DNA of 64,000 nt, from assembly GCF_026210795.1 (NCBI RefSeq), contig NC_089434.1, forward strand, positions 806,001-870,000. The letters run 5' to 3'. The position numbers and the translations under genes were made by a program. Positions 8,399 through 61,648 of the stretch are shown here, piece after piece. The notes beneath the pieces are model-generated. The model was not told the origin of the DNA, ran no database searches, and saw only the letters and a program-made list of their open reading frames with translations. The stretch's first letter is position 1; each line of letters opens with the position of its first letter. The DNA comes from Rhizophagus irregularis. Taxonomy: Eukaryota.

Positions 8399-8422
8399 TA
8401 AAAATAATATTTAAAGGGGTAT

Positions 8423-10521: not shown

Positions 10522-10999
10522 GTTAAAACTTAATAAACTTACTCTTAAAATTGAACTTTTTCCTTTAAAAATTCCGCAGTAAAAATGGTCTTGAATACAA
10601 AGAAGAAGAAGTTTTTATACAACTTATATTTCTCGCTATTGTTTTAATTAGCGTAGAAGAGAGGTTGAATTGATCAGATCATTTCCAAATTTATCCATTT
10701 TTCCGCTTAATTTGGATAGTGTTGTAAATGATCGTCAAGAGTTGATATGTTTTTTGATCAATTTTGGAAAAGCTCAGATAAAAATTTGAGTTGCGTTTTA
10801 TAAATAATACTTAATGCATTATGCTTTATGATTAGATCACGAGTACAAGTACGAGTTAGTGTAGACAATTCATAATCATAATCATAATGCATATGCATAT
10901 GCTTATGCTTCTTTGACATCAAAAGAATAAAATTGCGATTTAGGGCTTCCTGTGCCACTTTTGTTGTAAGTTAAGTTGAACCATCAAAAAATAAGACAC

Positions 11000-14374: not shown

Positions 14375-17300
14375 ATGTCTTATCATATTTTTCAACATTA
14401 TATTTTTGATATTAATCTATCATCTCAACCACAATTAAATTATCAAGATAATTCTGAGAATATGCTAAGACAATTACAAAATCAATTACAAGCTCTTCAA
14501 AATGGTAATATATTAAATACTTCATACACTTCAAGATTTTCTACCATTGATAACCAAAGGTACATACCAACCAATCCTTGGATACCAAGTCAAAAGTTTA
14601 ATAAACTATTAAATACATTTGAAACAAATATATTAAATCAATTTATTTGTGCTCCTTGTGCATTTTGTGGACGCCTCATGTATCCTGAAAATGTGAATGG
14701 CTCCCTTATAATGAAAATTTTCCTTATCCCCTTTTACAAGCATATCCTGAAAAACCATTTGATTCACTATTAACATTTCATACTAGACCTCCAAATCGTA
14801 TTGCTGTATGTTTATCTTGTAAAAAACCTTCAACTAGATATGCATTTCCTTTCCTTTACCCTGTTCCTAATGAAATAAAAGCTGTACCTTTAGGCAGAAG
14901 AATGTATTTATCTCCAGTATTTATGCATTGTTCTTTAGGTAGAAATTCTGCAAACAGTGCTATATATTCAGAATATAGAACCTTAACTGGTACAATGAAT
15001 TTTTCAAAAAATACACGTTCTTTAATATTATATTCTGGAATGGTTGGCGCATATCTTGAAGATAACATGGATTTAAATTCAAATAATACTTGGTTAGATA
15101 ACACATTGGTTACAGCAGCAAACTGGTTAAAATTGCATAACCCCTTTTTAAGACCTTATTCACGTCTCTTAGATTTACCTGGCACAGATATGGCAAATCC
15201 TTTCCCTAAAGCATTTCACATACCAAATGATGATTCAGCTCCACCATTTTTACATAATGATATTATAGTCCCAAATACTAATTTTAATAATGAAGTTCAT
15301 AATGAGGACTTTCATTATACACATTTAATGGCAGGTTTTGTAAGAACACCTGAAAATACATTACTTCCTCTATCTGTGAATGATTCAAATTTAGAACCAT
15401 TGTTATTTCCTGACCTTTTTTTTGATGGCAAAGGACATTATCATGATATTATATCTAATAACAATACAGTACGTGAAGAAACATATTCTAAATACATTAA
15501 ACAAAGAGTACTTAATATTGATTCCCGATTCAGACTTCATCATAAATGGTTAGCTTGGTCATACTTACAACTTGAAAAGATTCGAAATCACCAAAATAAC
15601 CAAAGACTATGGAAACAAAAACAAACTGATAGAATACATCACCCACCAACTGCTGCTGAACTTATTCAAAGATCCTCCTATACAAATGGACATATCATTA
15701 ATGAATCTATAACTACAACATTACCTACTTTCATTCGTACTGGTGACACATACTTTCATGAAAAAGAATTACATGTAAATACAATGATATCAGAATATGG
15801 ATTACCATCGCTATTTGTTACTCTTACCATGGCAGAAAGCCATTGGACGCACTTACATAAAATCCTAAGAGTAACAGACAATCATGATACAATCCCAACC
15901 AACAGACCATTGCACACTACATTACATTTTATTCATCGTTTACAACAATTAAAAAAACATGTTTGGAAAAGTCCTGAACATTCAAGATGGGCTGAATTGA
16001 TTCACTTTTTTGAAAGAATTGAATTCCAAAATCGGGGTGCTGCACATATGCATGGTATATATTGGGTTTCAAAAACTATACAACAAATGATTTCTGAAAA
16101 TCTCATAAGATCTGATTTGCCAGATCCAAATACTGAATTTGATTTATATACAAAAGTAAAAAAACATCAAATCCATGTCTGTAGTGCAAAATGTGGAGGT
16201 CAAGCTGCGCCTGGACATACTTGTAAAAAGGGATTTCCCCGCCCTTTCTCTTTGACTACATATTATGATGAAAATACTCACAGGTATATATATAAATGTA
16301 TTAAGCCTGAAGATCAATGGGTTGTTCCATATCATCCTGAAACTTTAATGATATGGGATGCCCATATGAACATTCAGTATGTAAGTTCACGTGGATTAGC
16401 TAGATATTTATCAAAATATATATCTAAATCTGAGCCAACTCACGTTTTTAATATAAAAGAAGGTGATAAATTCAGGGAACATATAATAGCTAGAAGGCTA
16501 GGTTCAATGGAATTAATGTTTCTGATATTAGGTGAAGTGATATGTAATTCTTCATGTGCTGTTGAATATCTCACAACTGATCCACCTACAAGTAGGCAAA
16601 AAGCAATTCGTCCAATTTATTTAATTGATAATAATGATGATCCTTATTGGAAGGATCATATAGAAAAATATTTTAATCGACCATTGGGAGATGAATTTAA
16701 TAATTTAACATATCCAAATTATTTTAAACATTATGAAATAACAAAATCCCGACCAAAGACAACAATACGTCAAATTCACTCAGATTTATTAAATAATTTT
16801 GTTGTTAAAAGAACTACTCCCAGATTAGTTAGATTTCGTTATTTAAAATTACAAGATGGTGAATACTATTTTTATCAAAAATTATTGCTTGAACTTTCTT
16901 GTAGAAGTGAGGAAGAATTACTTAGCACATTTCAAACATATAGAGAACATTGGTTATTTCTCCATCCTGAATTACATGAAACAATTCAAGAAATCACACA
17001 AGAGTATTTACGAACACAACAATTAAAATTAGATGCTCAATTCAGTCAAACATTAGACACATTAGCCCTGTTCATTTCTAGATCGGACCGGATTGATCGC
17101 AAATTTGTACCCCAAAATAATTGGTTACTGATGCGGTCAGCGGTCAGTCAAGCCGATCTACAAAAATTGGTGTTTTTCCCTGATCGATTTTATAATAAAC
17201 ATAATAAACAACAACTACGTGTTTTTGCCCTATAAGCTATTATGGATATATAAACCAATCCGATCAATCAAAATTGTGCTCAATTGTAACTATGATCTGA

Positions 17301-18782
17301 TTGGTTATACATTTTTTCGGTCAATCCGATACGATCTAGAAATGAACAGGGCTATTATTAAATAATTTACAAGATATCATTCCACCTTCAACTTCAGAAC
17401 TAATTAATATACAACTTACTTCTTTACGAATCAATCCACCAATTCTTCCACAATGCTCTACTCTTAATCTTCCTAATGATCAACTACATGTACTTTCTAC
17501 TATTAAAAACATTCTAGGTCCTAAAACACAAAGAAATAAATACCCATACTTTTTTATTACAGGACCTGGTGGAACAGGAAAGTCTTTTATTATTAATTTA
17601 ATTGTTAATGATCTTAAAAATAAAAGATCAAAATACTTATTATTAGCCCCAACTGGTGTGGCGTCACAGAATATTGGAGGTCAGACAATCCATTCAGCAT
17701 TGAGAATTCGTGAAATGCAAAATGGATTTCAAACCTTAGCATTTCATGATTATGAATTTTTCAAAAATTTGCAACAGATTGACACTTTAATCATAGATGA
17801 AATTTCAATGGTATCTGCCGCACTTCTTAGTTTTATTTCAGAAATGTTTTCTGTTATACAACAAACAACAATTGCATTTGGAGGATTAAATGTAATTATA
17901 GTTGGAGATTTGGCACAATTACCTCCAGTAACTGGATTGCCTGTATACAAGTCATCAGAATGGAAAATGTTCTATCCATTATTCTTGAAAGAGCCACAAC
18001 GTCAAGGTCAAGATCCACGATATTTCAATGCATTACAAGAGATTAGAATGGGCAAAATGACTCTAAACACTTGGAATTTCTTATATCAAAAAGCTGCAGA
18101 GTTTGACCAGAAATCACTTCACACAACACTTGATATAACAAATATTGTAGGATACAAAGAAACAGCAAACCGAATTAATAATATGATTTGCAACATGCTT
18201 CCAATTAACCAAAATAAGTTTTTAATTTATTCCGCAGTTGACTTTATTAATGGTGAATCATATAATCCTGATGAATCAAAAAAATTATTTAAAAGCAAAA
18301 CCAATTATCCTAATTATGTACGTTTACAACAAGGAATTCGAGTAATGTACCTCAAAAATGATTTAGCAGAGCATAAAATTTGTAATGGTACAATAGGTAT
18401 AATAACTGATGTTGACTTGGAAAAATTAGAAGTTAGAGTAGCATTTAGTGTAGTAGGTGGTATTGTGGATATAATCATTAAAAGAGATACTGCAACATTT
18501 TTTGTTGATGGTAAACCTTCAAGTAGATGCCAATTTCCCCTACAAAATTCATATGCTCTTACCGTTCACAAAACACAGGGTTTAACCTTATATAAAGTAT
18601 CCTTATTCTTAGATAATCAAATATTCTCAGCAGGTCAAGCATATGTCGCATTAAGTAGGTGTCCAAACTGGTCAAATGTTTATATTGCAACTTTAAATCC
18701 TTCTGCATTTATTACAGATCAATCAATGATTGAAGAATATGAGCGACTAGAACAAATAGCATCAACTCCATTACCTTTGTAA
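14375..18782 (+). CDS. Helitron RepHel (HUH Rep plus PIF1-family helicase), disrupted by a frameshift at ~14690 and a MITE
   Basis: Rep motifs PSLFVTLT, IEFQNRGAAHMHG and YLSKYISK. Helicase motifs GPGGTGKS (17563-17586), LIIDEISM, GDLAQLPPV, HKTQG and YVALSR. N-terminal CxxC pairs. Confidence 0.93.
17065..17352. mobile_element. TA-flanked MITE inserted in RepHel
   Basis: TIR GCCCTGTTCATTTCTAGATCG / CGATCTAGAAATGAACAGGGC with TA on both sides. Removing 17065-17354 fuses the Rep and helicase ORFs in frame. Confidence 0.9.
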
Positions 18783-24686: not shown

Positions 24687-25323
24687 CTCAACGCGACTTC
24701 ATCTGTTAAAAGTTGGCGTTTATTTAGTTGCACATAATTATTATAAAAGAACGTTCCTTAAACGTTTGCTTTTGGAGGGACGCGTTGCACATTATTATTA
24801 TAAAAGAACGTTCCTTGTGAAGGATGCAGTTGTAATACTCAGTACAAATTCTCTACATCAAATGTATATAATGATACTTCATCTGTTAAATTGCACAAAA
24901 TTATTATAAAAGAAACATAAAAATCCGTCCCCTAAAACTTTCACTTCTCAATATATTTCACCTATTTTTTCATAAAAAAAAAATCGACGATTTCTATTTG
25001 TACACGGGGTGTTCAAACACGGTTTCCAAAAAAGTTACATTTTCTATGCTGATCATTTAATGTTGGGCAGAATTAAATTTAAACAAAAACAAGGAAAAAA
25101 ACAAGAATTTGTTAAATAAATCAAAATTGACATTCAAAATCAACTTTCACGCTTTAAGTATTTAAGTAAACTTGCAGAACACAAAAATACACATACCGCA
25201 TGTTCCTTTTAAATTATATATATTAAAAATTTTTTTTTTTACATAACTTTTTAATATACTCACGTGATACGTGTATGAACACCTAAAAAATTTTCAAAAA
25301 ATATATATATTTATATTTTCATT

Positions 25324-27106
25324 ATGCGAATAGTATTGATTAATACAGAAATTAATAGAGCATTTGCATCAATCAATTATGAAACTCATAAAAATATAGA
25401 CGAACAATATCAATTTATAAAACAGACTGTTCTTGCTAATGAAACTTTTACCGATGATGAAAAAACTGAAGCGATAAGAAGAATAAATAAAACTTACGAT
25501 CACAATAAAATTTTTCATAATATAGGTACAAAAAGAATTTGTGAAATTTGTAATTGTGAATGTTTAGCTACATTATATTGTGAATATTGTATTAGAAATT
25601 ATTTAGAAAAAAAATTTCCAAATTGGACATCTGGAAATAATGATATTGATAATTTAATAAAAAAATGTCAAATGGAAACACGTAGACCAGATGTTGTAAT
25701 TGAATGGATTCCATACAATAATTTACAAGATATTGAATATCTTACAAAAGGTGGATTCTCAGAAATTTATACGGCAATTTGGAACAATGGAAAATATCAA
25801 AAATGGGATTCTGAAGAACAACATTTAAAAAGATTTGGAGGACAAAAAGTGATACTTAAAAGGCTAGAACATGTTGAAAATGCAAATCAACGTTGGTTTA
25901 AAGAGGTTTGTAATTTGAAGTTATTTTAAATTAAGTAAATAATTTATTTTTTTTTATTGGTAATAAATTTTGAAAAAATACTTTATAGGCCGAATCACAT
26001 TTGACTATAAGCAGTAAATCTCCATATATTGTCCAGTGTTATGGTTTAACACGAGATCCATCAAATGGAGATTACATGCTTGTAATGAATAGAATGGATT
26101 TGAATTTAAGAGAATATTTACAGCAAAAAAATAATCAACTTACATGGAAAAAAAGAATTCATTTGGTTTATAACATAATTACCGCACTCAGACAGATTCA
26201 TAAAGAAGATGCAATTCATAGAGATTTACATTCTGGTAATATATTATTGAAACAAGTCAATCAAAGATTATTTATTAGTGATCTTGCATTTTGCGGTCCT
26301 GCAGACAAATCACCAAATGATGTATACGGAAATCTTCCCTATATAGCGCCTGAAGTTATTTCTAATAAAGGATATACTTTTAAATCTGATATTTACAGTA
26401 TTGCAATGCTAATGTGGGAAATTTCATCTGGACAACCACCTTTTAATAATTGTAAACATAATTGTTGTCTTGCAATTAGGATTATTAATGGCGAGAGACC
26501 AATAATAATTTCAAGAACTCCTTTAGAGTACGAAAATTTAATGAAACAATGTTGGGATGATGATCCATTAAAAAGACCTGACATTACAACACTTTGGGAA
26601 AAAATAAATGAAATTTATAAAAAATATCTGAATATGCCAAATGAATTAGAAGAGAATAACAATTTGGAAATAAATAAAACAAATAGTTTAAAAGAAGCAA
26701 AAGAAAGAAGTAGCATATTATTTACAAGTAGCAAAATTCGTAATTGTGAAAATTGTCCTGAACCAAGAAATGTAACAGAAGGTACTATTGCATATTAATC
26801 AATCATTATAAATATTTATAGTAATAAATTATTTTTTTTAATTTTTTATTTAAATCAATTTTTTATTTTAAATTTATTTATATATGACTAATTCATAATT
26901 ATTTTACATAATCTTTTAGCATTTCATAATGCAACAAACAACGTCTTTTCTATTCCTGATAATAGTAAGTGTTTATTAAGTCAAATAAGAATATGGCATC
27001 TTCATCTTCTAATTGTTTTTTTTTTCGCTTTTTTTAGTTAGTGATTTTGGCAAACCAAGTAATCGGGAACCAGGAATATACCAAAAAGTAAGCAACTTTT
27101 TAAAGG
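25324..27106 (+). CDS. Tyrosine-kinase-like (TKL) protein kinase of the expanded Glomeromycotina type; 3' exons uncertain
   Basis: Exons 25324-25905 and 25989-26781 join in frame. Motifs CxxC..CxxC, WTSGN..ID, EWIPY, KGGFSEIY, VILKRL, HRDLHSGNIL, DLA (at the DFG position), YIAPE and SDIYS. Confidence 0.9.
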
Positions 27107-28051: not shown

Positions 28052-29010
28052 TTAAACTTTATCAGTAGATAAAGTGTGTATACGTTCTATCGGCCAAGTT
28101 TTTAAAGTGAAATAAGAAGATTCTTTTTGTAATATTAATGCTAATGCCAAATACCAAGCACAAAAAGCAGCGATAACTAAATTTTTTTTAAAAAAAAGAA
28201 AAAAAAAATATTTAGAAAATTTCAATCATTTTTTAATTAACAATAAAAACGTAATTAACAATCGGTAAAAGAATTTACCTCCAAAAACACCACCAGCGAC
28301 TTCGAAAGATTTTAATCCGGTAAAGGTTGCGGTTGTAAGTAAAGTATTAATGATAACCAATAAGGATAAAATTGTAATCAGCACGAGATTCGATTTTAAT
28401 GCACATAATAACATGATGAAAGCAACTATTCAAGGAAAAAAAAATAATAATGTTTAGGTTCATGTAATTTCGAAAAATCAAGTTAAACCATGACTTTTAT
28501 AATTATTAAAGCAAGATACTTACAAATTGTCCAACCCACAAGAAAAATACCAAGTGCATTCCTTAACATTTCTGGATTATCTTTATAAGAAGAAAGAATA
28601 CCTGTGGCGTCATAATTAATGAATCCGAAACAGATCCAATAGCCACCAAAAGATGGGAAAATCGTTCCATGAAAAATATCACCTCTCATCATTTCAAAAA
28701 TTCCAGCTAATACTTGAATAAAACCACCATAGAATAAAGCTAAACCAAGAGCGACATTATGATTGACTACTCCTCCGGTTCCAATTAAATACATTGAAAA
28801 AACGAATAAAGTCATCGCGAAAGATGATAAACCTATTGAAAATTATTTTTCAAAAAAAAAAAAAGAGAAAAAATTAGGCTTTTTTTTCAAGAATTTATAT
28901 TTATGAAAGTATCTAATATGATAGTATTTACCTAATGGAGCAGCATTCGCTTGTGCTTTAGGTGGAACTGAAGTAGTTTCGTCAAGAGTTGAATTTGATT
29001 TTGGCATCAT
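28052..29010 (-). CDS. Gpr1/Fun34/YaaH (Ady2/Ato) family acetate/ammonia transporter, 4 exons
   Basis: ANAAPLG|LSSFAMT signature (consensus NPAPLGL), FYGGFIQVLAGIFE, SFGGYW and multiple hydrophobic helices. Start at 29010, stop at 28054-28052. Confidence 0.88.
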
Positions 29011-31252: not shown

Positions 31253-32031
31253 ATGCCCCAAATAACGAATCCCAAGAAATGGACTACGGATGAACTTCTT
31301 GGAATTCTCTCTTATATCGAAAGTCATCCATTTGATTCCTTGTCAGAGGCATGCAGAAAAGCAATAAAACATCAAAATATTGATAGAACTCATAAGAGCA
31401 CTTATTCAAAAATGACAAGATTAATTTACGCAATAAAGTTATGGTTGAATGATCATATACAAAATGGTGAAGCGATCATTTGGAAAGATGATAGAGTGTA
31501 TAAGCTATTGGAAAAAATTTGCGAGACACGGGAATCTAACAAAAATAATAAAAATCAAGAGCAAGAATTACAACGAGGTGATCAAATTGAAAGCACTATT
31601 GAAACTAATAGTGTGATCGATAAAAGCGAAGAGCAAGACCTCACAGATAATTTCAGTGATTCAACTATGGATGGAGATTATTATACTGATCATCTTGACT
31701 TATACAGGTAATTATCCATTTAACTTAAAATTTTGAGCCTATTAATAAAAACTACTATTTTAAATTTTTTTTTTTTAAAAAAAAAATATAATTTAGGAAA
31801 AATAAAGAACAATTTCCTTCTTTCCACCTTCCATTAAAGATCTTGAGTGATAGAATCTATGAAGCAGAAAAAGAAGCAAGAGAAGTTTATGAAACGACTA
31901 CTGCTGAAAACGAAGATATGAATTATCATCAAATTTGTCAAATAATCAAACAAATTCAAGAGTATCGAGATGAAGTGTGTGGTTTATTTGAGGAATTCGA
32001 AAAAAAGATCAACGAAATGAGATCATTATAA
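31253..32031 (+). CDS. Myb/SANT-like plus coiled-coil family, copy A (divergent, outside the main array)
   Basis: Exons 31253-31707 and 31797-32031 with a phase-2 intron. KKWTTDELLGILSYI..RTHKSTYSKM..IIWKD. Confidence 0.7.
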
Positions 32032-32458: not shown

Positions 32459-33593
32459 TACTGTACTATTTAATATCGTACCGCGGGTCATAGCACCTTT
32501 CAAATCCTTGTATCACCATGTCTATAGCCCGAATATTTTTTTATGGATAATATCTGGGTAAATTAAAATTCTTTAAATAATAAAATCAATAAAAAAAATG
32601 AAACTTTTGAGGATACTACGCATAAGGTGCTGTGGCCGTGGCCCACAATATACGGTGTTATGTTATTATTATTCATAGAAATTTTACGTCATTACGACAT
32701 TTAATATGTTGCCGATCCAATGTTACTTATTGTACCGTCAGAATCCAATTCTATTTTGCAATCCCGGTACTTTAATGATTAAAATTAACGAATCCGACGA
32801 CAATATTTTTAAGTTCAACAATCAATAACCATTTAATGTCCAATGAGTGTTGGTTTATATAATGATTTACAAGTTTTGGGGCGTAAAAAAATTTCATTGA
32901 TTTCGGATACAGAAATTCATATTGTATTATTCTCTATATACGCGTAAAAAAAATAAAGAAATACGAAAACAAATAATTTATAAATAATTATCCAAGTATG
33001 GTAAATTCTCATTATGTATGGTTACTAAATAATACATATCCGTACTTTTTTACTTATCATGTTTTAAGTATAAAAAAAAAATTTTAAAGAAAAAAGAATT
33101 GATCAAAATTGTCAAATAAAATAAAATAAAAAAAAAATGTAAGAAAGAAATGAAAATGGAAGGAATAAAAAATTTACTTAATAAAGAAGTTTTTAGCCAA
33201 AAAAAGAGTTAAAAATTAATAAATATCGAACGGACTTAATAAGGATCAATTAACCCTATTTAAATGTTTACCCGATTAAAACTAATCTTAATTGTTAATT
33301 GTCAATAATAATTCTTTTATTCGAAACAAAATATCCATAAAGAAAAGTCTTGGCATCTTGGCGTTTCTAGATTAAAAATATGTATCACAAATTTTTGATA
33401 AACATTTTGTTTGTCAGATTAGGAATTAGTGTCACAAAACGACTGATCAAATCATTCTTCGTACAAAGTTTTATGAGCGAAAAGTTTAAAAAATTTAAAT
33501 ATAAATAGAATTTCAATTCAATGACTTGTCGACTCTTCATTAATTTTTTTCATATAGGAAAAAAAATCAAATCGTCACTTTTCAACTGTTAAT

Positions 33594-34706
33594 ATGGCTC
33601 AATACTACAGAATACCATTGAAAAAAAATGAACCATCTTCCAAATATTCATGGGAAGAAAAATTAATAATTCACAAGAACATTGCAAGAAGCAAGTATGG
33701 TAGACTTGTTGAAAAAGAACCGTTAAAAGACGTAGCTACGGAACCAGTAACCGATTATGATAATGATATCGGATATTACGGTCCAGCAATTCTTGGTGGT
33801 CAAAAGTTTCAACTTCTTTTTGATACTGGTAGCGCAGACTTATGGGTCCCCAAAGTATCCTACAACAATGGAACAAAAACCAAACATAGCACATTTGATC
33901 CAGAAAAATCAGATACTTTTAAAACCGACAATAAATCATTTTCAATTACTTATGGTACAGGACATACTTCAGGTGTGGCTGCAACTGATACATTTGAATT
34001 TGCTGGTTTTTCCATCAAAGATCAAGCTTTCGGTCTCGCTGACACCGTTTCTGATGATTTTACGAACGCTCCATTTGACGGAATTCTTGGTATGGCTTTT
34101 GATCAGTTAAGCGAGCTACAAGCCCCAACCCCATTTCAAAATTTAATTAATAACCATAGTGTCTCATCATCTGTGTTTGGCTTCGTACTTGGCCGTGCAG
34201 AGGATGGCACTAACGGCAACAGTGAGCTTACAATTGGTGGAGTTGATCCAAAATTTTCAAATAACATTAAATATAACAAGGTTGTTAACAGACGAGGATT
34301 CTGGCAGATTGCTTTAGGTGGTGCGCAAGTAAACGATAAAACAGTAGATGTAAAAGGAGGTGAAGCTATTATTGACACTGGTACAACTCTTGTTATCATT
34401 CCTCCTGAGGATGCTGATGCTATTCATAATGCAATTCCCGGTGCGAAAAAACAAGGTCAAAATTACTTAATTCCAACCAATTCTAAAGCCGTAGTAGCTT
34501 TTACTTTTGGAGGAGTAACCTATAATATTAATCCTGCAGACATGACCGTTGATGATGTAGGAAATGGTCTAAGTGTTTCGGGCATCCAAGGCGAAAATAT
34601 GCCTGGTATGGAAAATACATGGTTGGTCGGTGATGTGTTCCTTAAGAACGTATTTAATGCTTATGATGTCAATAAATCGGCTGTGGGATTTGCTCCATTG
34701 GAATAG
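33594..34706 (+). CDS. Pepsin-family (A1, rhizopuspepsin-like) aspartic protease, intronless
   Basis: Catalytic FDTGSADLW and IIDTGTT, flap ITYGTG, DGILG, LVGDVFLK and VGFA. Propeptide RIPLKK. Confidence 0.96.
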   Translation: MAQYYRIPLKKNEPSSKYSWEEKLIIHKNIARSKYGRLVEKEPLKDVATEPVTDYDNDIGYYGPAILGGQKFQLLFDTGSADLWVPKVSYNNGTKTKHSTFDPEKSDTFKTDNKSFSITYGTGHTSGVAATDTFEFAGFSIKDQAFGLADTVSDDFTNAPFDGILGMAFDQLSELQAPTPFQNLINNHSVSSSVFGFVLGRAEDGTNGNSELTIGGVDPKFSNNIKYNKVVNRRGFWQIALGGAQVNDKTVDVKGGEAIIDTGTTLVIIPPEDADAIHNAIPGAKKQGQNYLIPTNSKAVVAFTFGGVTYNINPADMTVDDVGNGLSVSGIQGENMPGMENTWLVGDVFLKNVFNAYDVNKSAVGFAPLE

Positions 34707-45642: not shown

Positions 45643-47197
45643 ATGGCTTCAACAAGTGGTTTACAAAGAAAAAACGCTGGAGCTTTTAATTCATCACACG
45701 AAAATAATATACCAACAACACCAGATTGAAGTTATTCAGAGAGTGGTGTTAGGATTGCAGTTGATCCTAATGACATACTTGATGATGAAGATAAAAAACA
45801 ACCTATTTTAACACTTATGGAAGAAGTTCTCTTGCTAGGTTTAAAAGATAAACAGGTAAAATATTATTATTTCATTTATAATTTTTTTATTCGGTATTTT
45901 TTTTTCTTTCTCCCGACAATAAAAAAAAATGTGAAATTTTAATTCATAATTTGGATAATCTATCGTCGTTGAATAGTAATTATTAATTAGGTGAATAATT
46001 ATTTATCGAAAGAAGGATTAATTATCAACTGACATGGAGAATAGTAGCAGTTTGTTCTTTTAGTTTTTTTAAAATTTTTTTTTAAAAGATCGTTACATTT
46101 TAAAGACAATTTATTAAATATATGGGACGATTTATCATATTATCATTCATTTATTTAACAAAAGACGAATTTTGTAGAATCGGTATGATCGGTATAATTA
46201 ATAAAAAAAATGACAATTTTTTGAGGGAGAGGAAGGGAAGAAAGAATACGATTAGAAATTAGGGATTCGATTATAATTTTTTATTTATATCTTTACAAAT
46301 TATTTTTTTATGTAATATTTCTCTTTTCTATATAAATAATAATCTTGATCAGGGTTACCTCTCATTCTGGAATGACAATATTTTTTATACTTTAAGAGGG
46401 TGTATTCTTATGGAACTTGCGCTTCGTGGTCGAATAGCCATGACTAAAGATTCAAATCGTCGAAAATGTCCACTTTCAGATAGGATCATAGAGGTCCTTG
46501 AGGATAAGTTGACAGGAGAAGTATTATTAGATGAAGCATTAAAATTGATGAAAAATAGTGAACCTATGAGCGTTGGAAATTGGATTGATCTAATGAGTGG
46601 TGAGTTTGAATGTATACCAAAAAAAAGGAGAAATGATTTTTAAGAGAGGAATTATTTATTATTTGTTATTTGTTGAGAATTTAAAAATTTTTTTTCATTT
46701 AAATCCTTTTATTTAATTATTATTATTATTATTTTTCCTATCAATTATTATTTTAGTAGGAGAAACTTGGAATGTAATGAAGATTGGATATCAATTAAAA
46801 CAAGTACGGGAATGTTTAGCAAAAGGATTAGTAGATAAAGGGATTTTAAGAACCGAAAAAAGAAACTTTTTACTTTTTGATATGGCAACTCATCCTGTTA
46901 GTGATTCTTCGACAAAGGAAGAAATTGTTAATAGAGCTATTCACCTTTTGGTAGTTTACGTACTATATCAATGGTATGTGTTGCTTACGCCGCTAATGTA
47001 TTAGAAAATGCTTATTGCAGTTAAATCATGAATTAAGAGAAAAAGCATATACAAAAGTTGATGAATTATTAAGTGAATATTCTACTCATCCTTTTTCTAA
47101 AAAAGTTAAAGCTGATATTCCTGAAGGAAAAGAATTACAGGTTGAAGTAGTGTTCACCGTTTTAAATGTTTTTACAAAGATGGATAGTATTTTGTAG
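45643..47197 (+). pseudogene. VPS74: Golgi phosphoprotein 3 / Vps74 pseudogene (introns retained)
   Basis: [81 protein letters not shown]. In-frame TGA at 45727 and deletion/frameshifts at ~46950-47020. Confidence 0.9.
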
Positions 47198-48669
47198 AAA
47201 AAATGTATCATTAATTTATTTTATTATTATTTGGAAAGGAATAAGGTAAAATTTGTTTTGTAAAAAAAAAAAATCCTCACAAGAGTGCGTAATTCTTTTT
47301 GTTTGTTAAATCATTTTAATTATCATTATTTTCTTTATACGTTGGTTAAATTAGTTTAATTTTCTTTTCTTTTTTTTTATTAAAGAAAAAAAAATTTCTT
47401 AGGGTAGATGTAAAAAATTATGTTCACAATCTTAATATAGAAATTACAATATCATTAAAAAAAAGGGAATAATTTTAATAATTTGTGTTACAAATAGTTT
47501 ACAACTTCTTTAATTGCATCGTAACACTTTGTCATATCCGGAACATAAATATGATCTTATTTGGAACGTATCCCTTAGTAATAATTCTGACTATCGATAA
47601 AGGAATAGAGTGAACTTTCTAAGTATTTTCTTGGGAAGGTTCCTACTGTTTCACTTAATAATTAGCCTGAGCATTTGTATTTTTTTTCTTTAAACAATCT
47701 CGTAAGGCAGTTTAATTCTTTAAACAAAAAAAAAATTCACCCAAAACTCACCATCAATTTGTCTAACAGTATACTTAGTTTTTTTTAAGTCATCTTTTGA
47801 GTGGAAGTGGAAATTTTACAGAAATAATATAGAAAATAACTTTTTTCTGTAAATTTTTTCATCTTCATTCAATAGCTGTTTTTGAGATTAAAAAGAGGAA
47901 ACTCACAGCAAAAGAAAAGAGGCACCAAAAATTATACCTTCAATTCGCTATTATAACACCAAACCAACGAACCGGATACTGGTAATATGGTAGGATTTAT
48001 TGCTAACAGTGTAGCCACGCATCCAGGCGATGATGGCAAATTTTCTATCGTAAGATTCACCGCACTGAAGGATGGGAACTATGTCCTAGACGCGACATTT
48101 ACACATAACAGTTAGTTATTGTGCCTAAAAAAAAAGAGAAAGAAAAGGATGGTTAAAAAAAAGGAAATAAATCAACAACAAAAGAACACCTGAAACTCAC
48201 CTTCATACAACTGTATAAGAAAGATAAAGATTAAAAAAAAAAAGAAATCACGAGTGAAAAAGTAACTCACCAAAATCTACCGTCATTTAGGGGTGCAGAC
48301 ATTTGTTAGTGACGTACCGCCATATTGCGTTGCGTCGTTTGACGACGGCTTGACGTATCAAAATATAAATATTTTTAAAATAAATTCCATTTTCCTTTAT
48401 TGCGCTTACTACTCTTTTAATTAACAGTATATTTTTCTCCTTTGGCTGATCTATTTAAAACATTATTAACTAAATTATATCCATATTATTATCATTTGTT
48501 TCAATGAGTAAGACATTTCTGCTTTCTTATCGTTATGAAAACATACAAGCACATGTGTACAAAGCCTATAATTATAAGTATTTCATGTCAAAAGTTTGGA
48601 GTCTAAGGTACTTCAAATCAAGAGTTTAGTCAAAAGCTTATGTCAAGCCTAAGGTTAAAAGTAAAAAAG

Positions 48670-48966
48670 AAAAAGGGAACGTTAGTAACGTTCCCAAATT
48701 AAAAATAACGAAAAAAGAAACAAACGAATTACCCACCTACCTTGCAATTTCAAAGTCCAGGTTGGGTTCAAGGCCGCTCCTAAAAAGAGGAATTGTTAGT
48801 AACGTTCCAAATCAAAAAAAATAACAAAAAAAAACAAACAAATCACCCACCCATCTTGCAATTTCAAGTCCAGGTTGAAGTTCAAAGGCCATTAAAAAGG
48901 GAACGTTAGTAACGTTCCCAAGCCAACAAAAAAAAAATAATAATAAACAAACGAAATATCTACCTA
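48670..48966. repeat. Three ~110-bp units, each with the palindrome GAACGTTAGTAACGTTC
   Basis: Units start at ~48675, 48788 and 48898. Each is followed by an A tract and ACCCACCTACC-like sequence. Confidence 0.75.
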
Positions 48967-50029
48967 CCAACTACCAAGTCATTAACGAAGTCACATGGCA
49001 ATGTGACGCCATTGACGTTGACACAAAAAAGTTGACGTGACCATATCTGCACTTGGAAGGTTCTTTATGTACAATAAAAGAAAGAAAGAAGCAAGCTTAA
49101 AAAAAAAATAGAAAGGAAACGAAAAACATTTCACGAAACTAACCTATAGGCTTAAAAGTTTACTATAAAACATTTACATAGTCGTCTTGACACAATTCCT
49201 TCATAAATAAACGCTCACTTGCACAGTGACACGCCGGTCCTACTTGGCTCGGAAGCAAACAATTATGCTTCGGAAAAAAAAAATTTTGTAAAAAAAAAAA
49301 AAAAAAAAATTGAGGGGTTTTATATGAAATTTTAAAATTTTCTGTCGCACAGAGCGGAATTTCCTGGAAAAAATTTGAAAATTATATTTGAAATCAGTAG
49401 AACTGTTCTTGGGGACCGGCCCTTCAAAACCGGTTACTAAACCGGTCATGGAACCGGTCCTTAGAACAGTTGAATATAGCTTATCTAGCTGGTATGTTAA
49501 TTACCACCGGTGAGATTTAGCAATTTTCTTCTTTTTCTAATTATAATTTATTTTATTTTTTTTTTATATATATATTTAAATATAAAATGGTTGTTTATTT
49601 TTTTGCGCATAAACAATTTATTATTATTATATTTTAAGTAAAAAATAATTTTCATAAAAATTTTCGTTCCATCAATTGATCTATCGCCATTAAACGCTAT
49701 TTTCGGATTTATTAGACGCAGTAAACGTGATAATATGCATGAATATTCCTTTTAAAGCCCATTGATAGGAATCTATCTCCGACTTACTTCATTATGAAAG
49801 AAAGTATTGTTTAAATCTTATAAAATAAAATTTGATTATTTCTAAATCTAATTACACTATACTTTTTTGTTTTCATTTATGAGTTTCCAATACATTATAC
49901 ACATGTTTCAATTCATTTATATTATTGAATAAACAAATCAATTATAAAATAAATAATCCATCCACAAAAATTTTATGACCATATTTTTTTATTTGTATCG
50001 TCAACAAAAAAAAAAAAAAAAAAAAAAAA

Positions 50030-50773
50030 ATGCCTCGAGCTGATAAATCAATCTTTTGGCCATCTTCGGAACTAATTAAAGTACTTGAGTTTATTAATGA
50101 TAATTTTGATGAGTATTGTAAAAATCGTCGAAAAATTTGTAATGAGGCCGTAAAAGCTACAAACATTTGTCGAAATGGAAAATCGGTTTATAATAAACTT
50201 TTTAATTTAATTAGAAATATGATGATTTCTGAATTTAAAAGTAGTGAGCCAACTAGCAGATCCATCAAAGAGAATAAGGAAATTCGTAGATTAGTATCAG
50301 AACTTTATAATAAAACTAACGCTAAAGAAAAAAATAAAAAAGAAAATCAAAAAATAACAGAAGATCGTAAGAGTGATGATACTAAGATGAATTTAGAGTA
50401 TGTTGACTTTAAATTATTGATTTTTTTTTCATAAAACAAAAAAAGCTATTACTAATATAATATTTACATTTTTTTTGTCTTTAATTTTAGCGATGATAAA
50501 GTAACAATCGGAGCGTTTACTGGTCAAATGGATATGTTCTTTTCGATTGAGAATGTTAATGAATTTTGTGAAGAAAAAATACAAAATGTTAACCATTATG
50601 CGACAATATCGAAAGAGATAGTTGAATCTGGCCTTGAAATTAAACTCGAGGAAATTCTTCAACTTCTGTCTGAATGTGAAAAAACGATGAAGGATCGAGA
50701 TAGTAAGGTTAATAAATTACTTGAAGATTTAGAAAGTGTTGGGATGGACTGGGACCCTGATAATACACCATAA
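50030..50773 (+). CDS. Myb/SANT-like plus coiled-coil family, copy B
   Basis: Exons 50030-50397 and 50491-50773 (phase 2). FWPSSELIKVLEFI..RNGKSVYNKL; exon 2 FSIENVNEFCEEKIQ. Confidence 0.8.
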
Positions 50774-52002: not shown

Positions 52003-52678
52003 ATGCCACCAACAAAAAGGACAAGGGAGATATCTCAAGAATCATATGTGAAGTCCATAGGGCTTATCAGAGTCTTTATGTTTCTTAATAATAACATTAA
52101 TATGTGGAATGAAAATAATTATAATGCATGTGATGAAGCAAAAAAGCGTGCCGATGTTACTTGGGATGCTAAAATAACTTATAATATAGTTAAAACTTGT
52201 ATTGAAGCTATGAATGAATATAATGAAACAGGTAATAAGCCAAACACTTGCGACAGTATTATCTGGGATAATAAAAGACTTAATAGTTTGATAAGAGTGT
52301 TTTGTAATAAAATTGTGAAAGAAGAAAAACAAGGAACTATGAAAGATCGTAAGAATGACGGGGGTATTGAAAATATTTTAAGGTATGATGACTTTAAGTA
52401 TTATTGTTTTTTTTTAAAAAAAAATATTATTAGATAACTGATAAATATTTTTTTTTCCATTCGCTAGTCGACCCTTTTCGATTGCGGAGGCTAAGAATCT
52501 TTACAACGAAAAAATTAAAAATGTCAACTTTTATGCAGATAAAGGTAAAGAAATGATTGAAAATGGTCGTAAAAAACAAGTCGACGATATTACTAAAATT
52601 TGGTCCACACTTACAAAAACGTTTGAGGACGAATATAATAAGATTAATAAAATATTTGAAGAATTGAAAAAACTTTAA
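52003..52678 (+). CDS. Myb/SANT-like plus coiled-coil family, copy C
   Basis: Exons 52003-52382 and 52468-52678 (phase 2), open through to TAA. Confidence 0.8.
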
Positions 52679-53016: not shown

Positions 53017-54064
53017 TAATTTTTTTTAATAGCTTTTATGTATGACAACCAAAGGTATTAAGCTAGGAAACAGAAATACACCGTCGTACACTTTAATATA
53101 ACGTATGAGTCATCAATTGTATCAAAACATTAGACGATAAATAAACATATATAACTCCATTTGATTTTGTTGCACCAACCGCATTTCTCTGAAATTTAAA
53201 ATTTTTACATAAGCATACAGACTGGATAATTTTCGATCACGTGCTCGATGTATCTTTTTCAAACATGACGTAACTTAAAAGCTGTTTTGACACAATTATT
53301 TATTAATATTTATACGCATAATTAGACGAAATTAACAAGTTATAATATACATTTATCGCTGTTTTTATATTGGGGTGACCAAATTACCGGACAAGGGACG
53401 ATTACAAGACAAAATTTGACGAATGTTCGAATACCTATTCAAAAATTAATAGGGCAATATTAAATAATAAATAAATAATCCTGAATACTTTGTCGATCAT
53501 CACTTTTTCTTTTTTGCTTAATTGGGGATGATTAATTTCTTTTTTTATTATTTATTTTTAGTAAGCGCCATAAGGAGTTACATAATTTAACCAAAATTCT
53601 TTTTAATTAAAAGTCCCCCTTATAAAAACGAAATGAGTTAAATTTGTTTAATATTTGTGCTCATGTGTAATAAAATATCTAAAAAAGCACCATATTGTTT
53701 AATTTTTATTTTTTTGTAATAAGACATAAATTGTATAAAATGGTGCTTTTTTGGACGTCTTTTATACATGAACACAAATTTAACACATTTCATTTTATAG
53801 GGCCCTTTTAATGATTTAAAAGTTTTAATGTCATTTATAAGGCGCAAATAAATGCAGAAATCACGACGCTTTGCATTTCCTAAGGCGTAAACTTAAAAGC
53901 TTTTCCATTTTTGAACTTGATTGCTTCCTGATTTATAACTTGTAACACAAGTGGTCAGAGCATACAATTAAATAAATAGTATAGAAAAATTCAATCTCAC
54001 ATTTTTTAACAGGAAAAAAAAAATTGATTATTTATACTTTTTATCTATATTTTTGAAAAATTAA

Positions 54065-54466
54065 ATGCTACCAATAAGAAATTCAAGTGAAATGTCTCAA
54101 GAAGGTCATGGAAGTGACGGTGACGTTGAAATGGGTTTAAAGTATGTTGATATTAAATCATATTCTTTTTTTTAAAAAAAATAAATGAGTTAAAATAAAA
54201 GATTTAATTTTAGCACTGATCAAGTAACAACTGAAGTATTCACTGGTCGAACAGACAAGACATATTCAATTGAGGAGATTAATAAAATTTGCAACGAAAA
54301 AGCTCAAGAAGCCAAAACTGCTGCGGAAAAGACGATAGAAATGATTGAAGCAGATCGTAAAAAGAAATTAGAAAAAATTAGTCAACTTCGGACCGAACTT
54401 ACTAATACAATTAATGATGCAAATATCAAGATTAATAAAATATACGAAGATTTGAAAAAAATTTAG
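54065..54466 (+). CDS. Family copy D: 109-aa short form lacking the Myb-like domain
   Basis: Exons 54065-54141 (77 nt) and 54214-54466. MLPIRNSSEMSQEGHGSDGDVEMGLN-TDQVTTEVFTGRTDKTYSIEEINKICNEK...LKKI*. Absent from the ORF track. Confidence 0.8.
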
Positions 54467-55009
54467 CGATTGTCAGGAATTTATATTATTATTTTATAGA
54501 CTGAAAGCATAATATTTTGAAATTTATTTTAGTTCATATAGATTTATTTGAGTTAGTAATTAAGTTTAAATAAAAATTAATTTAAATTCTTTATTTCTTT
54601 TCTTTTAATCTCTAAAGTTTAGACCTTTAATAAAATGAAGTTTTTATTTTATGCTGTAATTAAGTGGGAAAAAATTCTTAACCTATTTAATATCTATGAG
54701 CTGGTTCTTTTTCCGTGATTTGCACTATCTCTTTTTATTTAAGATCAACCAAAACTGTGATTCCAATTTTGACAATTTAGTAATAGCCATCTTACCTCAT
54801 CTTGCATCTAAATTTTGATTGGTTCCAAATTCAAAAGTAATCGGTAAATTAAAATTCCTTTATTTCTATTTATTTATTTATTCCACCTCCCATTTCTGAC
54901 AAAAGAAAAAAAGAAAATTTTTTTTTTGAAGTCAGTTACTTTTATTTCTTCCACCTCCCATTTCTAACAAAAAGAAAAAGAAAAAATTTTTTTTTTTTAC
55001 TTCACATTA

Positions 55010-55345
55010 CAGTCGCCACTGGATATAACGAACCTGGATATACCGAAAACTCGTTTTATCGAACCAAATAGTGCGGAACCGATTTTCTTATAATTAATTA
55101 CACTGGATATAACAAAATTATATAGTAAAATGCTACGTGTTTATTGATCAAATGTATTGATACCGAATGATCACGTGAATTAAATTGGTATAGGATAATC
55201 ATTTACGCGGATAATCTTTGAACACAATATAATATGACGTGCAAAACTTTAAATAATTTTTTAATCATGTGACTTGATTTTATTGGTAGAATCTATATAC
55301 CGAACTATAGATTAAAGTATTATATAACGAATTCACCCTATACCG
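55010..55345. mobile_element. Tc1/pogo-like MITE fragment replacing the 5' part of copy E
   Basis: TA-CAGTCG start and repeated GGATATA(A/C)CGAA motifs. Right TIR not found. Confidence 0.45.
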
Positions 55346-55862
55346 GAGAAAATGAAGAAATCTATGAATTGGTAAAACGAATTTAAAAGACTGAAAGAAG
55401 ATAATCAAGAAATTGCAAGAGGCTATAAGAGCAACGGTCACATTGAAAAAATTTTGAGGTATGGTGAATTTAAGTATTGTTTTTTTTTTAACAACGAAAA
55501 TACTATGAGATTTATAATTATTAATTTATATATTTATTTTTTTTTCTTTCAAATTAGTTCTGATCAAATAGGCCCTGCTGACCTGCTCAATCGAGTAGAT
55601 TTTTAATCTTTGTGATAAAAAAATTCAAAAAATTGACAATTCGGCGACAGAATTGATAGAGAAGGTTAAAACTGATTATAAAGAACGAATCAATCAAATT
55701 ACTCAATATCACTCTGAACTTATAAAAAATATTAATGAAACCAGTAAACAGATTAATGAAACTAATAAGATGTGTGAAGAGTTCAGAAAATTTAATTATC
55801 TGTTAGAAACTACCATATATTATCATTTTAAAAGCCGAAGCGTGGTATCTTTCATTATTTAA
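55345..55862 (+). pseudogene. Family copy E, 5'-truncated pseudogene closest to copy G
   Basis: ENEEIYELVKRI*..NQEIARGYKSNGH. Intron nearly identical to that of copy G. Exon 2 has an indel. Confidence 0.75.
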
Positions 55863-56544
55863 TCTATTAAAGTTTAGACCTTTAAAAAGATTCTTTATTT
55901 TAAAATTACGACTGTCATCCAACATAAACGGCCCTTAATTTAGACGAATTTAATATGCTATTCGGCATTATATCGGGCCGATATGTGTTCAAAATCCTAA
56001 ATTATTGGAGCATATACGTAACTACACTTCCATTCTGAATTTCTGATCACATGCATGCAAAGTCTGTCAACTGAGTCACGTGAATTTGCAAAAATAGGAA
56101 ATATTCTTATCGAACATTTAATTCTGGCTGGAGTACAGTTGACCAAAAGTAATTTAGTCAGCTATTTGAGAAATTTCGACAATGGTTAGAATTTTGGATT
56201 TTGGTAACTATATAGTCGCTCTGGATACTGAAAAATTCGTTCATTGATAACGTTACAGATTTGATGATCACTCATTTCACTCAATGAATAAAAGTGCCAT
56301 AAAATGCTCATTTTATATTATAGGGCGCTACGATTGCAGCATATTGCATGTTAGGCGTAAACCTAAATTTTTCCGGTTTTTGAACTTGATTTCTTCCTGT
56401 TTTATAACTTTCATTTATTTCGTAACACAAAGTTATCGAATAAATAGAATTGAAAATCCATTTTACATTTTTAACAAAGAAAAAAAATCGATAATTTTAT
56501 ATACATATATTTATATATATACATACTTTTATATTCGAAAATAA

Positions 56545-56953
56545 ATGCCACCAATAAGTAAGATGTCTCAAGATTCTGCAAGAGGTCGTAGGAATGACGG
56601 TGACGTTGAAATGAATTTAAAGTATTACGATTTAAATCCTTTTTATTTTTTAAAAATGCGTTATTAAAAAAAATTTACAAATTGTTTTTTTTCATTTTAG
56701 CACTGATCAAATAACAACTGAAATACTCACCGGTCGAACAGGAATACTCTGTTCAATTGAGGAAATTGATAATCTTTGTAACGAAAAAGTTCAAAAAGTT
56801 AAACTTATTGCGGATAAATCGATAGAAGCGATTGAAGCTGGTCGTAAAAAACAAACCGATCAAATTTCTCACCTTCGGGCCGAACTAATAAATACGATTA
56901 TAGAAGCAAAAAATAAGATTAATAAAATATGTGAAGAGTTGAAAAAATATTAG
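56545..56953 (+). CDS. Family copy F: 109-aa short form lacking the Myb-like domain
   Basis: Exons 56545-56621 (77 nt) and 56701-56953. MPPISKMSQDSARGRRNDGDVEMNLN-TDQITTEILTGRTGILCSIEEIDNLCNEK...LKKY*. Absent from the ORF track. Confidence 0.8.
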
Positions 56954-57537
56954 TGATTGACCGAGAAACTTATATTATTTTTATAGACCAAAGAAGAATA
57001 AATGTATTATTAGTTTATATAATTTTAACAAAATGAGTGTGTGTATTTATTAAATAAAAATTAAATTCTTCATCCTTTCAAGCCTTTATTTTATGTTTTA
57101 TAAAATTTTATAATCGAAAGTCGTAATTGTACATCGTGACAAATAATGTGATATCCAATTTAAAGTGGGTTAAAACCGGTAAAAAGACAATCATTAAATT
57201 CTGAGTTGATTGTTTTCTATCATACCCATACTTCTATACTTTAAGAAATATACTATCCTTTTTTATTTAAGTTCGTATCATAAGGCGGAGTTTGCAGCCA
57301 ACTTTCGTATAATCACTCAATGAATTAATCATGACACAACATATTTTTCTTGCATTTGATTGATTCCAAATTTAAAGATGTCGATCAGATAAATAGTATT
57401 GAAAACTCCTTAAATTCCTTTCACTTGACAAAAAAGAAAGAAAAAAAAAGTTTAAAATCGATTAATTTTATTCTTCACGATATTTTTAACAAAAAAAAAA
57501 AAAAAAAAATTTCTTAATTTTTTTTTTGAAAAAAAAA

Positions 57538-58252
57538 ATGCTATCATTAATAAATAATATGAATAAGACACCACAAGAAATACGTTGGAAACCCAAAGAT
57601 CTCGCTCGCATCTTATATTACATTAATGATCATTTTGATGAATGGTATAATGATAATTATAACTTTTGTGTCAAAGCAAAAGAAAATACCGGCGTTATTT
57701 GGGACGCTAGATCAATTTATAATATGGTTCATACCCTGTTTAAGGTCACAGAAGATTATCTTAAGGTAGGTACTAAGTCAACAACATGCACCATTATCTG
57801 GGAAAATAGAGAAATCTACGATTTGATGAAACAAATTTACATGAGGACTAATAAAAGAATGAAAGAAAGCAATCAAAGAGTTACAAGAGGCCATAAGAAC
57901 GACGGTCACATTTTAAAGTATGGTGAATTTGTGTATTGTTTCTTTTTAAACAACGAAAATACTATGAGATTTATAATTATTAATTTATATATATATATAT
58001 ATTTTTTTCTTTCAATTTAGTTCTGACCAAATTACAATTGAAGCACTAATGGACAGGCCCTGTTTGATCGAGGAGATTTTTCATCTTTGTGATGAAAAAA
58101 TTCAAAAAGTTGTCAATTCGGCGGCAAAATCGATAGAAAATGCTGAAGCTGAATATAATGAACGAATCAATCAAATTACTCGATATCGGTCTGAACTTAT
58201 AAAAAGGATTAGTGAAACTAATAAGATGTGTGAAGAGTTCAGAAAGTTTTAG
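57538..58252 (+). CDS. Myb/SANT-like plus coiled-coil family, copy G
   Basis: Exons 57538-57917 and 58021-58252 (phase 2). RWKPKDLARILYYI..WDARSIYNMV..IIWEN. Confidence 0.8.
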
Positions 58253-60928: not shown

Positions 60929-61648
60929 ATGCCTCAAGCTGACAGAATAAAACGCTGGGAAACATCAGAACTAATTAAAATTCTTACATTTCTCAATAAA
61001 AACTTTAACTTATGGTATAAAAACCACCAAGATGCATGTGTGGAGGCCGTAAAAGCCGTTAATATTAACCGAGATGGAAAATCAGTCTATAATAAAGTTC
61101 ATTCTATGATCAAAGCTATGGAGCATTTTCTAAGAACTCGTAGAAAACCAAAGACTTGCTACATTATTCGAGAAAACAGAACTATTCGTGGGTTGGTAAA
61201 AGAAATTTGTTACAAAACTAGAGAAAGAAATGGAAGAGAAAATCAAGATCGTAATAATGACGGTGACATTGAAATGGCTACAAAGTATGATGAATTTTCT
61301 TTCAGTTTTTAAGATAATATTAATTATTAAGCATTAACAACATTATCATTTTATTATTTTACTTATTTTTTTTTCATTTTTAGTAATAATCAACCAACGA
61401 TAACTAGGACATCCCAAAATCGAATTAACGTTCCTCGGATGCCTTTTTCGATTGAGACAATTGACGAGATTTACAACGAACAAATTAAAAGAATTGATCG
61501 TTCGGCGGTAATATCCAAAAACTTGATCGAAGTTAGAAATAGAGAAGTCCGTGATTTATACGAACAAATCTCCAAACGTCGAACAGAACTCATCGAATTA
61601 ATTGAGGAAGCCAATAATAAATTACAAATGTTGAGAGTACTTAGATAA
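60929..61648 (+). CDS. Myb/SANT-like plus coiled-coil family, copy H
   Basis: Exons 60929-61284 and 61384-61648 (phase 2). RWETSELIKILTFL..RDGKSVYNKVHSM; exon 2 PFSIETIDEIYNEQIK. Confidence 0.82.

What the first reader, a model, noticed from the sequence alone, without database searches (positions are those of the whole stretch)
54065..56953. Candidate fungal microProtein system: intact paralogues lacking only the DNA-binding domain
Seen: D and F (109 aa each, unannotated in the ORF track) keep the family N-terminus (MPPISKMSQD versus copy C MPPTKRTREISQE), the NDGDVEM linker, the intron and the full coiled-coil exon, but lack the ~100-aa Myb-like domain in frame. The junction coincides with TCAAGA, which occurs near the start in copy C and just before the linker in copies E and H, consistent with a microhomology deletion. 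Both remain open with identical exon lengths despite many substitutions. Established: microProteins such as Id and LITTLE ZIPPER inhibit transcription factors by heterodimerising without binding DNA. Inference: the array encodes regulators together with their own dominant-negative partners, a circuit I do not know to be described in these fungi.
Basis: partly seen in the sequence, partly recalled or inferred. Interest (0 to 1): 0.85.

Follow-up and report, generated by a model that had tools for sequence, protein, structure and literature searches.

The report
Conserved DNA-binding-less paralogues in mycorrhizal fungus
A symbiotic root fungus keeps two small, spliced, species-conserved genes that lack the predicted DNA-binding part of their neighbouring sister genes and so likely act as decoys that dampen those regulators, a trick known from plants and animals.

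Summary
In a Rhizophagus irregularis tandem array, D (54065-54466) and F (56545-56953) are two-exon, 109-aa genes keeping the family N-terminus, linker, intron and C-terminal helix but lacking the ~100-aa N-domain in frame. Both are spliced in 4 of 4 raw RNA runs (27-59 junction reads each), and no upstream exon or domain remnant was found. Both have short orthologues in R. clarus (70-73% identical). Their frames stayed open where neutral simulation expects stops (P about 0.003) while sister copy E decayed; dN/dS (0.71, CI 0.38-1.36) does not exclude 1. The missing domain is predicted Myb/telobox-like, best matching the DNA-binding domain of fission-yeast Sap1 (Z 10.1), a protein that needs its C-terminal coiled coil to bind DNA. 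So a microProtein-type decoy is the best reading (0.45), but dimerisation, DNA binding and inhibition are all inferred, and the nearest long sisters C and G lack conserved helix-3 basic residues. New here: a four-exon antisense RNA covers F and outnumbers the sense form in one run. Probably one old deletion, then duplication.

The parts
54065..54466 (+). Short gene D, 109 aa: exon 1 54065-54141, intron 54142-54213, exon 2 54214-54466; transcript about 53806-54506
   Evidence: model; joint 54141>54214 in 31/28/59/29 reads of X21-X24; spliced contig 53806-54466 in X6 and read ends at 54506
56545..56953 (+). Short gene F, 109 aa: exon 1 56545-56621, intron 56622-56700, exon 2 56701-56953
   Evidence: model; joint 56621>56701 in 54/38/45/27 reads
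54097..54102 (+). TCAAGA at the deletion junction of D (S-Q-E codons)
56568..56573 (+). TCAAGA at the deletion junction of F
55891..57002 (-). Spliced antisense RNA covering all of F and its promoter; introns 56774-56856 or 56774-56872, 56639-56730, and (inferred) 56408-56526; longest ORF 41 aa
   Evidence: CT..AC joints in 4 of 4 raw runs, X6 contig of 818 nt equal to the length of the three-intron model; strand inferred from splice signals, libraries look unstranded
55339..55793 (+). Copy E, decayed remnant of a G-type long gene: most of the N-domain gone, non-triplet indels and an in-frame stop in the helix frame; weakly transcribed and spliced
   Evidence: X6 contig 55076-55786
52003..52678 (+). 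Long copy C, 196 aa (intron 52383-52467); shares N-terminus and a promoter block with D and F
   Evidence: 51-nt upstream block 80% alike to D and F; intron not among the joints shown
50030..50773 (+). Long copy B, 216 aa (intron 50398-50490)
   Evidence: joint in 30/8/21/0 reads
57538..58252 (+). Long copy G, 203 aa (intron 57918-58020); model: four-helix Myb-like domain, loose linker, one long helix
   Evidence: (identical to P0014); deepest RNA cover of the array, intron not among the joints shown
60929..61648 (+). Long copy H, 206 aa (intron 61285-61383); keeps the family's helix-3 basic residues; N-domain 87% identical to R. clarus
31253..32031 (+). Distant long copy A, 229 aa (intron 31708-31796, predicted)

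Best explanation
D and F are spliced, conserved genes that encode only the linker and long C-terminal helix of a family whose long members carry a predicted Myb/Sap1-type DNA-binding domain, and they likely pair through that helix with the long members to make dimers that would bind DNA poorly. Shown: gene structure, splicing, absence of the domain, short orthologues in R. clarus, open frames beyond neutral expectation. Predicted: Myb-with-extension fold of the N-domain and one 60-residue C-terminal helix. Inferred: the long forms dimerise through the helix and need the dimer to bind DNA, as Sap1 does; D and F are translated, enter such dimers and titrate them; the antisense RNA over F tunes the dose. 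History (inferred): an in-frame deletion in a C-like gene, possibly at a repeated CAAGA word, then duplication into D and F before the R. clarus split.
For: Splicing in 4 of 4 raw runs, 3 samples, 2 studies; D and F junction counts at or above those of B in all four. No upstream joint among those shown and near-zero depth at 53022-53665; no N-domain remnant. D-type short proteins in R. diaphanus and R. clarus and F-type in R. clarus, all with the fused SQE-to-linker start; tails 70% and 73% identical to R. clarus, against 63-68% for H and G. 0 frame-shifting indels in 330 coding nt against 9 in 364 aligned non-coding nt; both frames free of stops in 4 of 1500 neutral simulations; E vs G shows 3 non-triplet indels at lower divergence. 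G model pLDDT 87; best of 48,161 chains is the Sap1 DNA-binding domain, Z 10.1, rmsd 3.7, 95 of 105 residues, then NgTRF Z 7.7, CHD1 SANT 6.8, RAD MYB 6.1, GT-1 6.0; the H domain alone gives the same top Foldseek hits. Sap1 has a long C-terminal coiled coil, and its DNA-binding domain alone does not bind its sites (PMC6053445, parts 1-2 read).
Against: dN/dS of exon 2 between D and F is 0.71 (bootstrap 0.38-1.36) and omega = 1 reproduces the observed protein identity in 14% of 150 simulations; the whole family runs at 0.4-1.7, so the helix surface is not tightly conserved. Hydrophobic a/d occupancy is only 0.37-0.56. C and G, the long copies most like D and F, have W and I/M in place of the family's R48 and K56 in helix 3, so they may themselves bind DNA weakly. 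No Pfam Myb match in 45 members; Foldseek E-values are only 0.095-0.14 and Z 10.1 is under the tool's caution level for all-helical folds. No evidence of translation was available. In one run (X24) and one contig set (X6) the antisense form of F dominates.
Confidence: 0.45

Rival explanations
1. D and F are functional stand-alone helix proteins that kept the family's contact with an outside partner (a chromatin complex or a Harbinger-type transposase partner, by analogy with domesticated Myb/SANT proteins, recalled) and act as adaptors or heterotypic competitors, not by pairing with their long sisters.
For: Open frames are conserved across species while the amino acids drift; language-model look-alikes are Myb_DNA-bind_3/4 and MADF clusters, scores 0.82-0.89, leads only; weak heptad pattern.
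Against: Closest solved fold and the domain order match Sap1, a homodimer through its coiled coil; no transposase-sized ORF lies in 44-64 kb; the short genes stay inside the array in R. irregularis and, by accession order, in R. clarus.
Confidence: 0.3
2. D and F do pair with the long forms but as positive or specificity-changing subunits (one DNA-binding head per dimer, changed oligomer state), not as inhibitors.
For: Same anatomy as the best reading; Sap1 uses more than one oligomer mode on DNA (PMC6053445); microProteins can reroute as well as block (PMC6003976 passages).
Against: In Sap1 a lone DNA-binding domain does not bind its sites, which favours loss of binding in a one-headed dimer.
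Confidence: 0.13
3. D and F are transcribed left-overs of a fast birth-and-death array with no protein function; any role lies in the RNA (antisense pairing) or nowhere.
For: dN/dS not significantly below 1; neighbour E is a transcribed pseudogene; abundant antisense RNA over F.
Against: Stop-free probability about 0.003 and indel-free probability 0.0003-0.011 under neutrality; both genes open in R. clarus at 27-30% protein divergence; all full-length strain records seen are open.
Confidence: 0.12

Closest known systems
Trans-microProteins: LITTLE ZIPPER (ZPR) versus HD-ZIPIII, Id versus bHLH
   Same: Separate gene under 140 aa, derived from a larger relative by duplication and domain loss, keeping the presumed dimerisation helix and lacking the DNA-binding domain (definition from passages of PMC5381583 and PMC6003976).
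   Different: Fungal; retained part is a ~60-residue helix with a weak heptad pattern; targets are only ~200 aa and lie in the same tandem array; interaction and inhibition are untested.
Schizosaccharomyces pombe Sap1
   Same: Four-helix Myb domain with C-terminal extension (best structural match) followed by a long C-terminal helix; similar size.
   Different: 12-16% identity, no sequence-level match; Sap1 is described as one essential protein, here a fast-evolving multigene array with truncated members; binding sites and fork-barrier activity unknown.
Telobox proteins (NgTRF1, TRF1), trihelix GT-1, MADF / Myb_DNA-bind_3/4 (Harbinger-related, recalled) proteins
   Same: Myb/SANT-class helical domain (Z 5.8-7.7; look-alike clusters); N-terminal DNA-binding domain plus C-terminal helix is also the recalled layout of trihelix and Harbinger Myb proteins.
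   Different: No Pfam match at threshold; no transposase-sized ORF beside the array.

Membership tests
trans-microProtein | Own transcription unit, small (under 140 aa) | tested here: met
   109 aa, own spliced transcripts
trans-microProtein | Related to a larger multi-domain protein and lacking its functional domain | tested here: met
   37-53% identity of exon 2 to C and G, same intron, N-domain absent
trans-microProtein | Maintained by selection | tested here: met
   frame-level constraint and orthologues in R. clarus and R. diaphanus; residue-level omega inconclusive
trans-microProtein | Retained part is a protein-protein interaction domain | tested here: inconclusive
   predicted single 60-residue helix in G, matches only generic coiled coils; a/d hydrophobicity 0.37-0.56
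trans-microProtein | Physically binds the larger relative and changes its activity | not testable with these tools
   needs two-hybrid, co-IP and EMSA
trans-microProtein | Protein is made | not testable with these tools
   no proteomic or ribosome-profiling data in reach
Myb/telobox (Sap1-like) DNA-binding domain, long copies | Three-helix HTH core plus fourth extension helix | tested here: met
   two AlphaFold2 models, pLDDT 87 and 88; top matches Sap1 and NgTRF; predicted, not solved
Myb/telobox (Sap1-like) DNA-binding domain, long copies | Sequence match to a curated Myb family | tested here: not met
   0 of 45 members reach a Pfam Myb family at E 0.1 among the 25 families shown
Myb/telobox (Sap1-like) DNA-binding domain, long copies | Basic residues on the recognition helix | tested here: inconclusive
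   R48 in 31 of 39 rows and K56 in 33 of 39; kept in A, B, H, replaced in C and G
Myb/telobox (Sap1-like) DNA-binding domain, long copies | Sequence-specific DNA binding | not testable with these tools
   needs DAP-seq, SELEX or EMSA
PIF/Harbinger transposon Myb gene | Adjacent DDE transposase gene and terminal inverted repeats | tested here: inconclusive
   no ORF over 160 aa in 44-64 kb, but spliced genes could be missed; inverted repeats not searched

The most novel reading that the evidence does not exclude
Arbuscular mycorrhizal fungi carry an undescribed, expanded family of Sap1-like DNA-binding dimers, and the array encodes its own two-layer brake: the first fungal homotypic microProteins (D, F) that poison the dimers, with F switched off in some conditions by a spliced antisense RNA.
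Probability: 0.2. Interest if true: 0.85.

Novelty: new variant of a known kind. Interest (0 to 1): 0.6.

Why it matters
MicroProteins are established in plants and animals; the passages searched in two papers on them never mention fungi or yeast. A conserved, expressed pair in the model mycorrhizal fungus gives a directly testable fungal case, and it names a fold for a Glomeraceae protein family that has no Pfam label. If the long forms act like Sap1 (replication-fork barrier, transposon targeting), the array would be an entry to genome regulation in a multinucleate, repeat-rich symbiont.

Tried and rejected
Complex prediction of the C tail with the D tail: no answer, score 0.00 in two runs, alignments not used, controls not folded; neither support nor evidence against. 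Whole genome not held. Two metagenome scans for related loci found nothing, so no orthologous DNA was seen and R. clarus / R. diaphanus evidence rests on deposited protein models. The run search listed no holder on record as RNA; expression rests on raw reads laid afterwards. Pfam and PDB sequence searches gave only generic coiled-coil hits. A second wide structural search with the H domain did not get through the queue. Earlier-findings look-ups were empty. Literature: the four gene ids in 0 papers; searches for fungal microProteins, Myb arrays in Rhizophagus and Sap1 with AM fungi listed nothing on this family (listings only); a recalled report of dominant-negative Sap1 fragments could not be found and is not used; the supplement of PMC10234402 could not be read and may bear on expression. 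No divergence time for R. clarus was found. Dropped from the 50 hits before alignment A1: P0036, P0048, P0065 (unrelated repeats), P0051, P0055, P0068 (long fused models), P0022, P0059 (aberrant ends), P0002 (short form). Rejected: an upstream exon restoring the domain; E as a third microProtein (longest ATG ORF 30 aa); a coding role for the antisense RNA (41 aa at most).

Full report
Setting. The window is AT-rich and its array proteins are identical to public Rhizophagus irregularis records: D = P0009, F = P0069, G = P0014. Downstream of a GPP34/Vps74 gene lie seven same-strand copies, B to H, at 50.0-61.6 kb; a distant copy A lies at 31.3 kb. All intact copies have one phase-2 intron at the same place: exon 1 carries the N-domain and a linker, exon 2 the C-terminal helix.

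The observation. D (54065-54466) and F (56545-56953) each have exons of 77 and 253 nt and encode 109 aa. Exon 1 runs from the family N-terminus through SQE/SQD straight into the linker. A profile of the N-domain finds A, B, C, G and H (73-135 bits) and a scrap in E, and nothing else between 52320 and 57574. TCAAGA stands at the junction of D and F, at the start of C and before the linker of E and H, and at two unrelated places. No long copy in the window has it at both ends; one unnamed relative has SQE and NQE at both ends at protein level (P0007). Microhomology is therefore plausible, not shown. Equal exon-1 length probably hides two offsetting 3-codon indels.

Expression. Raw reads of four runs (at most 3 samples, 2 studies; about a quarter of each run read) show the D intron in 31, 28, 59 and 29 reads and the F intron in 54, 38, 45 and 27 reads; B's intron shows in 30, 8, 21 and 0. 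The introns of C, G and H were not among the 15 joints shown (78 more not shown), though their exons are covered. In a narrower lay, depth over 53022-53665 is near zero, a contig of run X6 holds D as 53806-54141 plus 54214-54466, and no joint shown reaches D or F from upstream (10 rows not shown); the DNA-like run X15 lacks the spliced joints. Mates fall evenly on both strands, so strand is read from splice signals.

Antisense RNA. Joints with CT..AC ends at 56639-56730 (18, 29, 15, 91 reads) and 56774-56872 (2, 2, 3, 65 reads) cross F. On the minus strand they are canonical GT..AG introns; adding a third inferred intron at 56408-56526 gives 818 nt, the exact length of the X6 contig spanning 55891-57002. 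Its longest ORF is 41 aa. Antisense-spliced reads outnumber sense-spliced ones 91 to 27 in X24 and are fewer in the other three runs, which hints at condition-dependent control of F.

Conservation. A profile of the short forms returned 8 proteins among 2217 candidates: D-type in R. irregularis, R. diaphanus (106 aa) and R. clarus (103 aa), F-type in R. irregularis (two clusters) and R. clarus (102 aa), and two exon-2-only gene calls from unnamed contigs whose N-termini are unknown. The R. clarus models start at the second Met and show the same fused junction. Tails are 70% (D) and 73% (F) identical to R. clarus, against 63% for H and 68% for G. In a 20-row tree the seven rows labelled short (one of them an exon-2-only call) form one side of a branch at 67/89, not starred: one origin is neither shown nor rejected. 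D and F share a 51-nt upstream block with C (80%, E 3e-9 and 5e-7), so a C-like gene is the likely parent. D-E and F-G are alike as pairs (72% and 75% DNA identity), which suggests duplication of a short-long cassette. One R. clarus model (P0013, 274 aa) joins the short gene to the next long one; this is probably an annotation join but was not checked on DNA.

Selection. Exon 2 of D versus F: dS 0.36, dN 0.26, ratio 0.71, bootstrap 0.38-1.36; pairs among all copies range 0.41-1.66. Simulations with omega 1 reach the observed protein identity in 14% of 150 runs, with omega 0.3 in 97%, so residue-level constraint is weak or moderate. Frame-level constraint is clear: both frames survive in 4 of 1500 neutral runs at the observed divergence; non-coding D-F alignments hold 11 indels in 364 nt, 9 of them non-triplet, the coding 330 nt none (P 0.0003, or 0.011 using the E-G rate). 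Homopolymer tracts may inflate the non-coding rate. E, less diverged from G than D from F, has three non-triplet indels and a stop and serves as an internal control.

What the lost domain is. A search of 1.84 billion representatives gave 50 hits; those with names among the 20 looked up are from Rhizophagus species and Glomus cerebriforme. No member of 45 matches a Pfam Myb family. AlphaFold2 gives G a confident model (pLDDT 87): helices at 19-117, a loose linker, one helix at 143-202. Foldseek's top four rows are the S. pombe Sap1 DNA-binding domain (E 0.095, probability 0.99, TM 0.60). Against 48,161 chains Sap1 is first (Z 10.1, rmsd 3.7, 95 aligned) and the other N-domain rows shown are NgTRF, CHD1 SANT-SLIDE, RAD MYB, GT-1, Chd1 and TRF1 (Z 5.8-7.7). 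The H domain folded alone (pLDDT 88) again finds Sap1 and NgTRF first. Language-model look-alikes are Myb/SANT and MADF clusters at 0.82-0.89, leads only. [quoted passage not shown] Against a simple picture, C and G have lost the family's R48 and K56 in helix 3, which A, B and H keep, and the heptad pattern of the tails is modest.

How it most likely works. If the long forms bind DNA as helix-linked dimers like Sap1, then a gene encoding only linker and helix yields one-headed dimers that bind poorly: the Id / LITTLE ZIPPER logic (passages of PMC6003976 and PMC5381583). Gene structure, expression and conservation are shown; the fold is predicted; dimerisation, DNA binding, translation and inhibition are inferred. 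I give this 0.45, an outside-partner adaptor 0.30, a positive or rerouting subunit 0.13, and no protein function 0.12.

Novelty. The gene ids appear in no held paper, and listings for fungal microProteins, Rhizophagus Myb arrays and Sap1 in AM fungi showed nothing on this family; subscription journals and one unreadable supplement are outside these searches. The kind is known; the fungal setting, the Sap1-like target family and the antisense layer are not described in what I could search. Verdict: real feature, well-supported candidate, mechanism open; interest 0.6.

Noticed in passing
window 55891-57002 (-): Four-exon non-coding antisense RNA over F with two alternative donors; its share against sense F varies from about 1:3 to 3:1 between runs.
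   Followed up: partly
window 55076-55793: Pseudogene E is still transcribed and spliced at the family intron (X6 contig).
   Followed up: partly
P0013 (R. clarus, 274 aa): Model joining the short D-type gene to the next G/E-type long gene; annotation join or real read-through not resolved.
   Followed up: no
P0023, P0025, P0029, P0031, P0034, P0056: Family members whose C-terminal helix carries an internal repeat of the 'SIE..N..C.EK' segment.
   Followed up: no
P0068, P0051: Very long models ending in a full family member; P0068 has kinase, Sel1 and MACPF-like domains in front; probably annotation joins.
   Followed up: no
window 2894-10614 (-): Non-LTR retrotransposon with open endonuclease-RT-RNase H frame (1792 aa) and an RRM-bearing ORF1.
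   Followed up: partly
window 14689-18782 (+): Helitron with Rep-like and PIF1 helicase frames.
   Followed up: partly
window 25279-26798, 28483-28842, 33558-34706, 45644-47198: Tyrosine-kinase-like gene, GPR1/FUN34/YaaH transporter, aspartyl protease and GPP34/Vps74 gene.
   Followed up: no
window 53606-53812: An imperfect inverted repeat of about 190 nt (71%) just upstream of D's transcript start, with very high depth in the DNA-like run, so probably a MITE-like repeat.
   Followed up: no
window 48670-48968: Direct repeats of 70-180 nt, about 80% alike, upstream of copy B.
   Followed up: no
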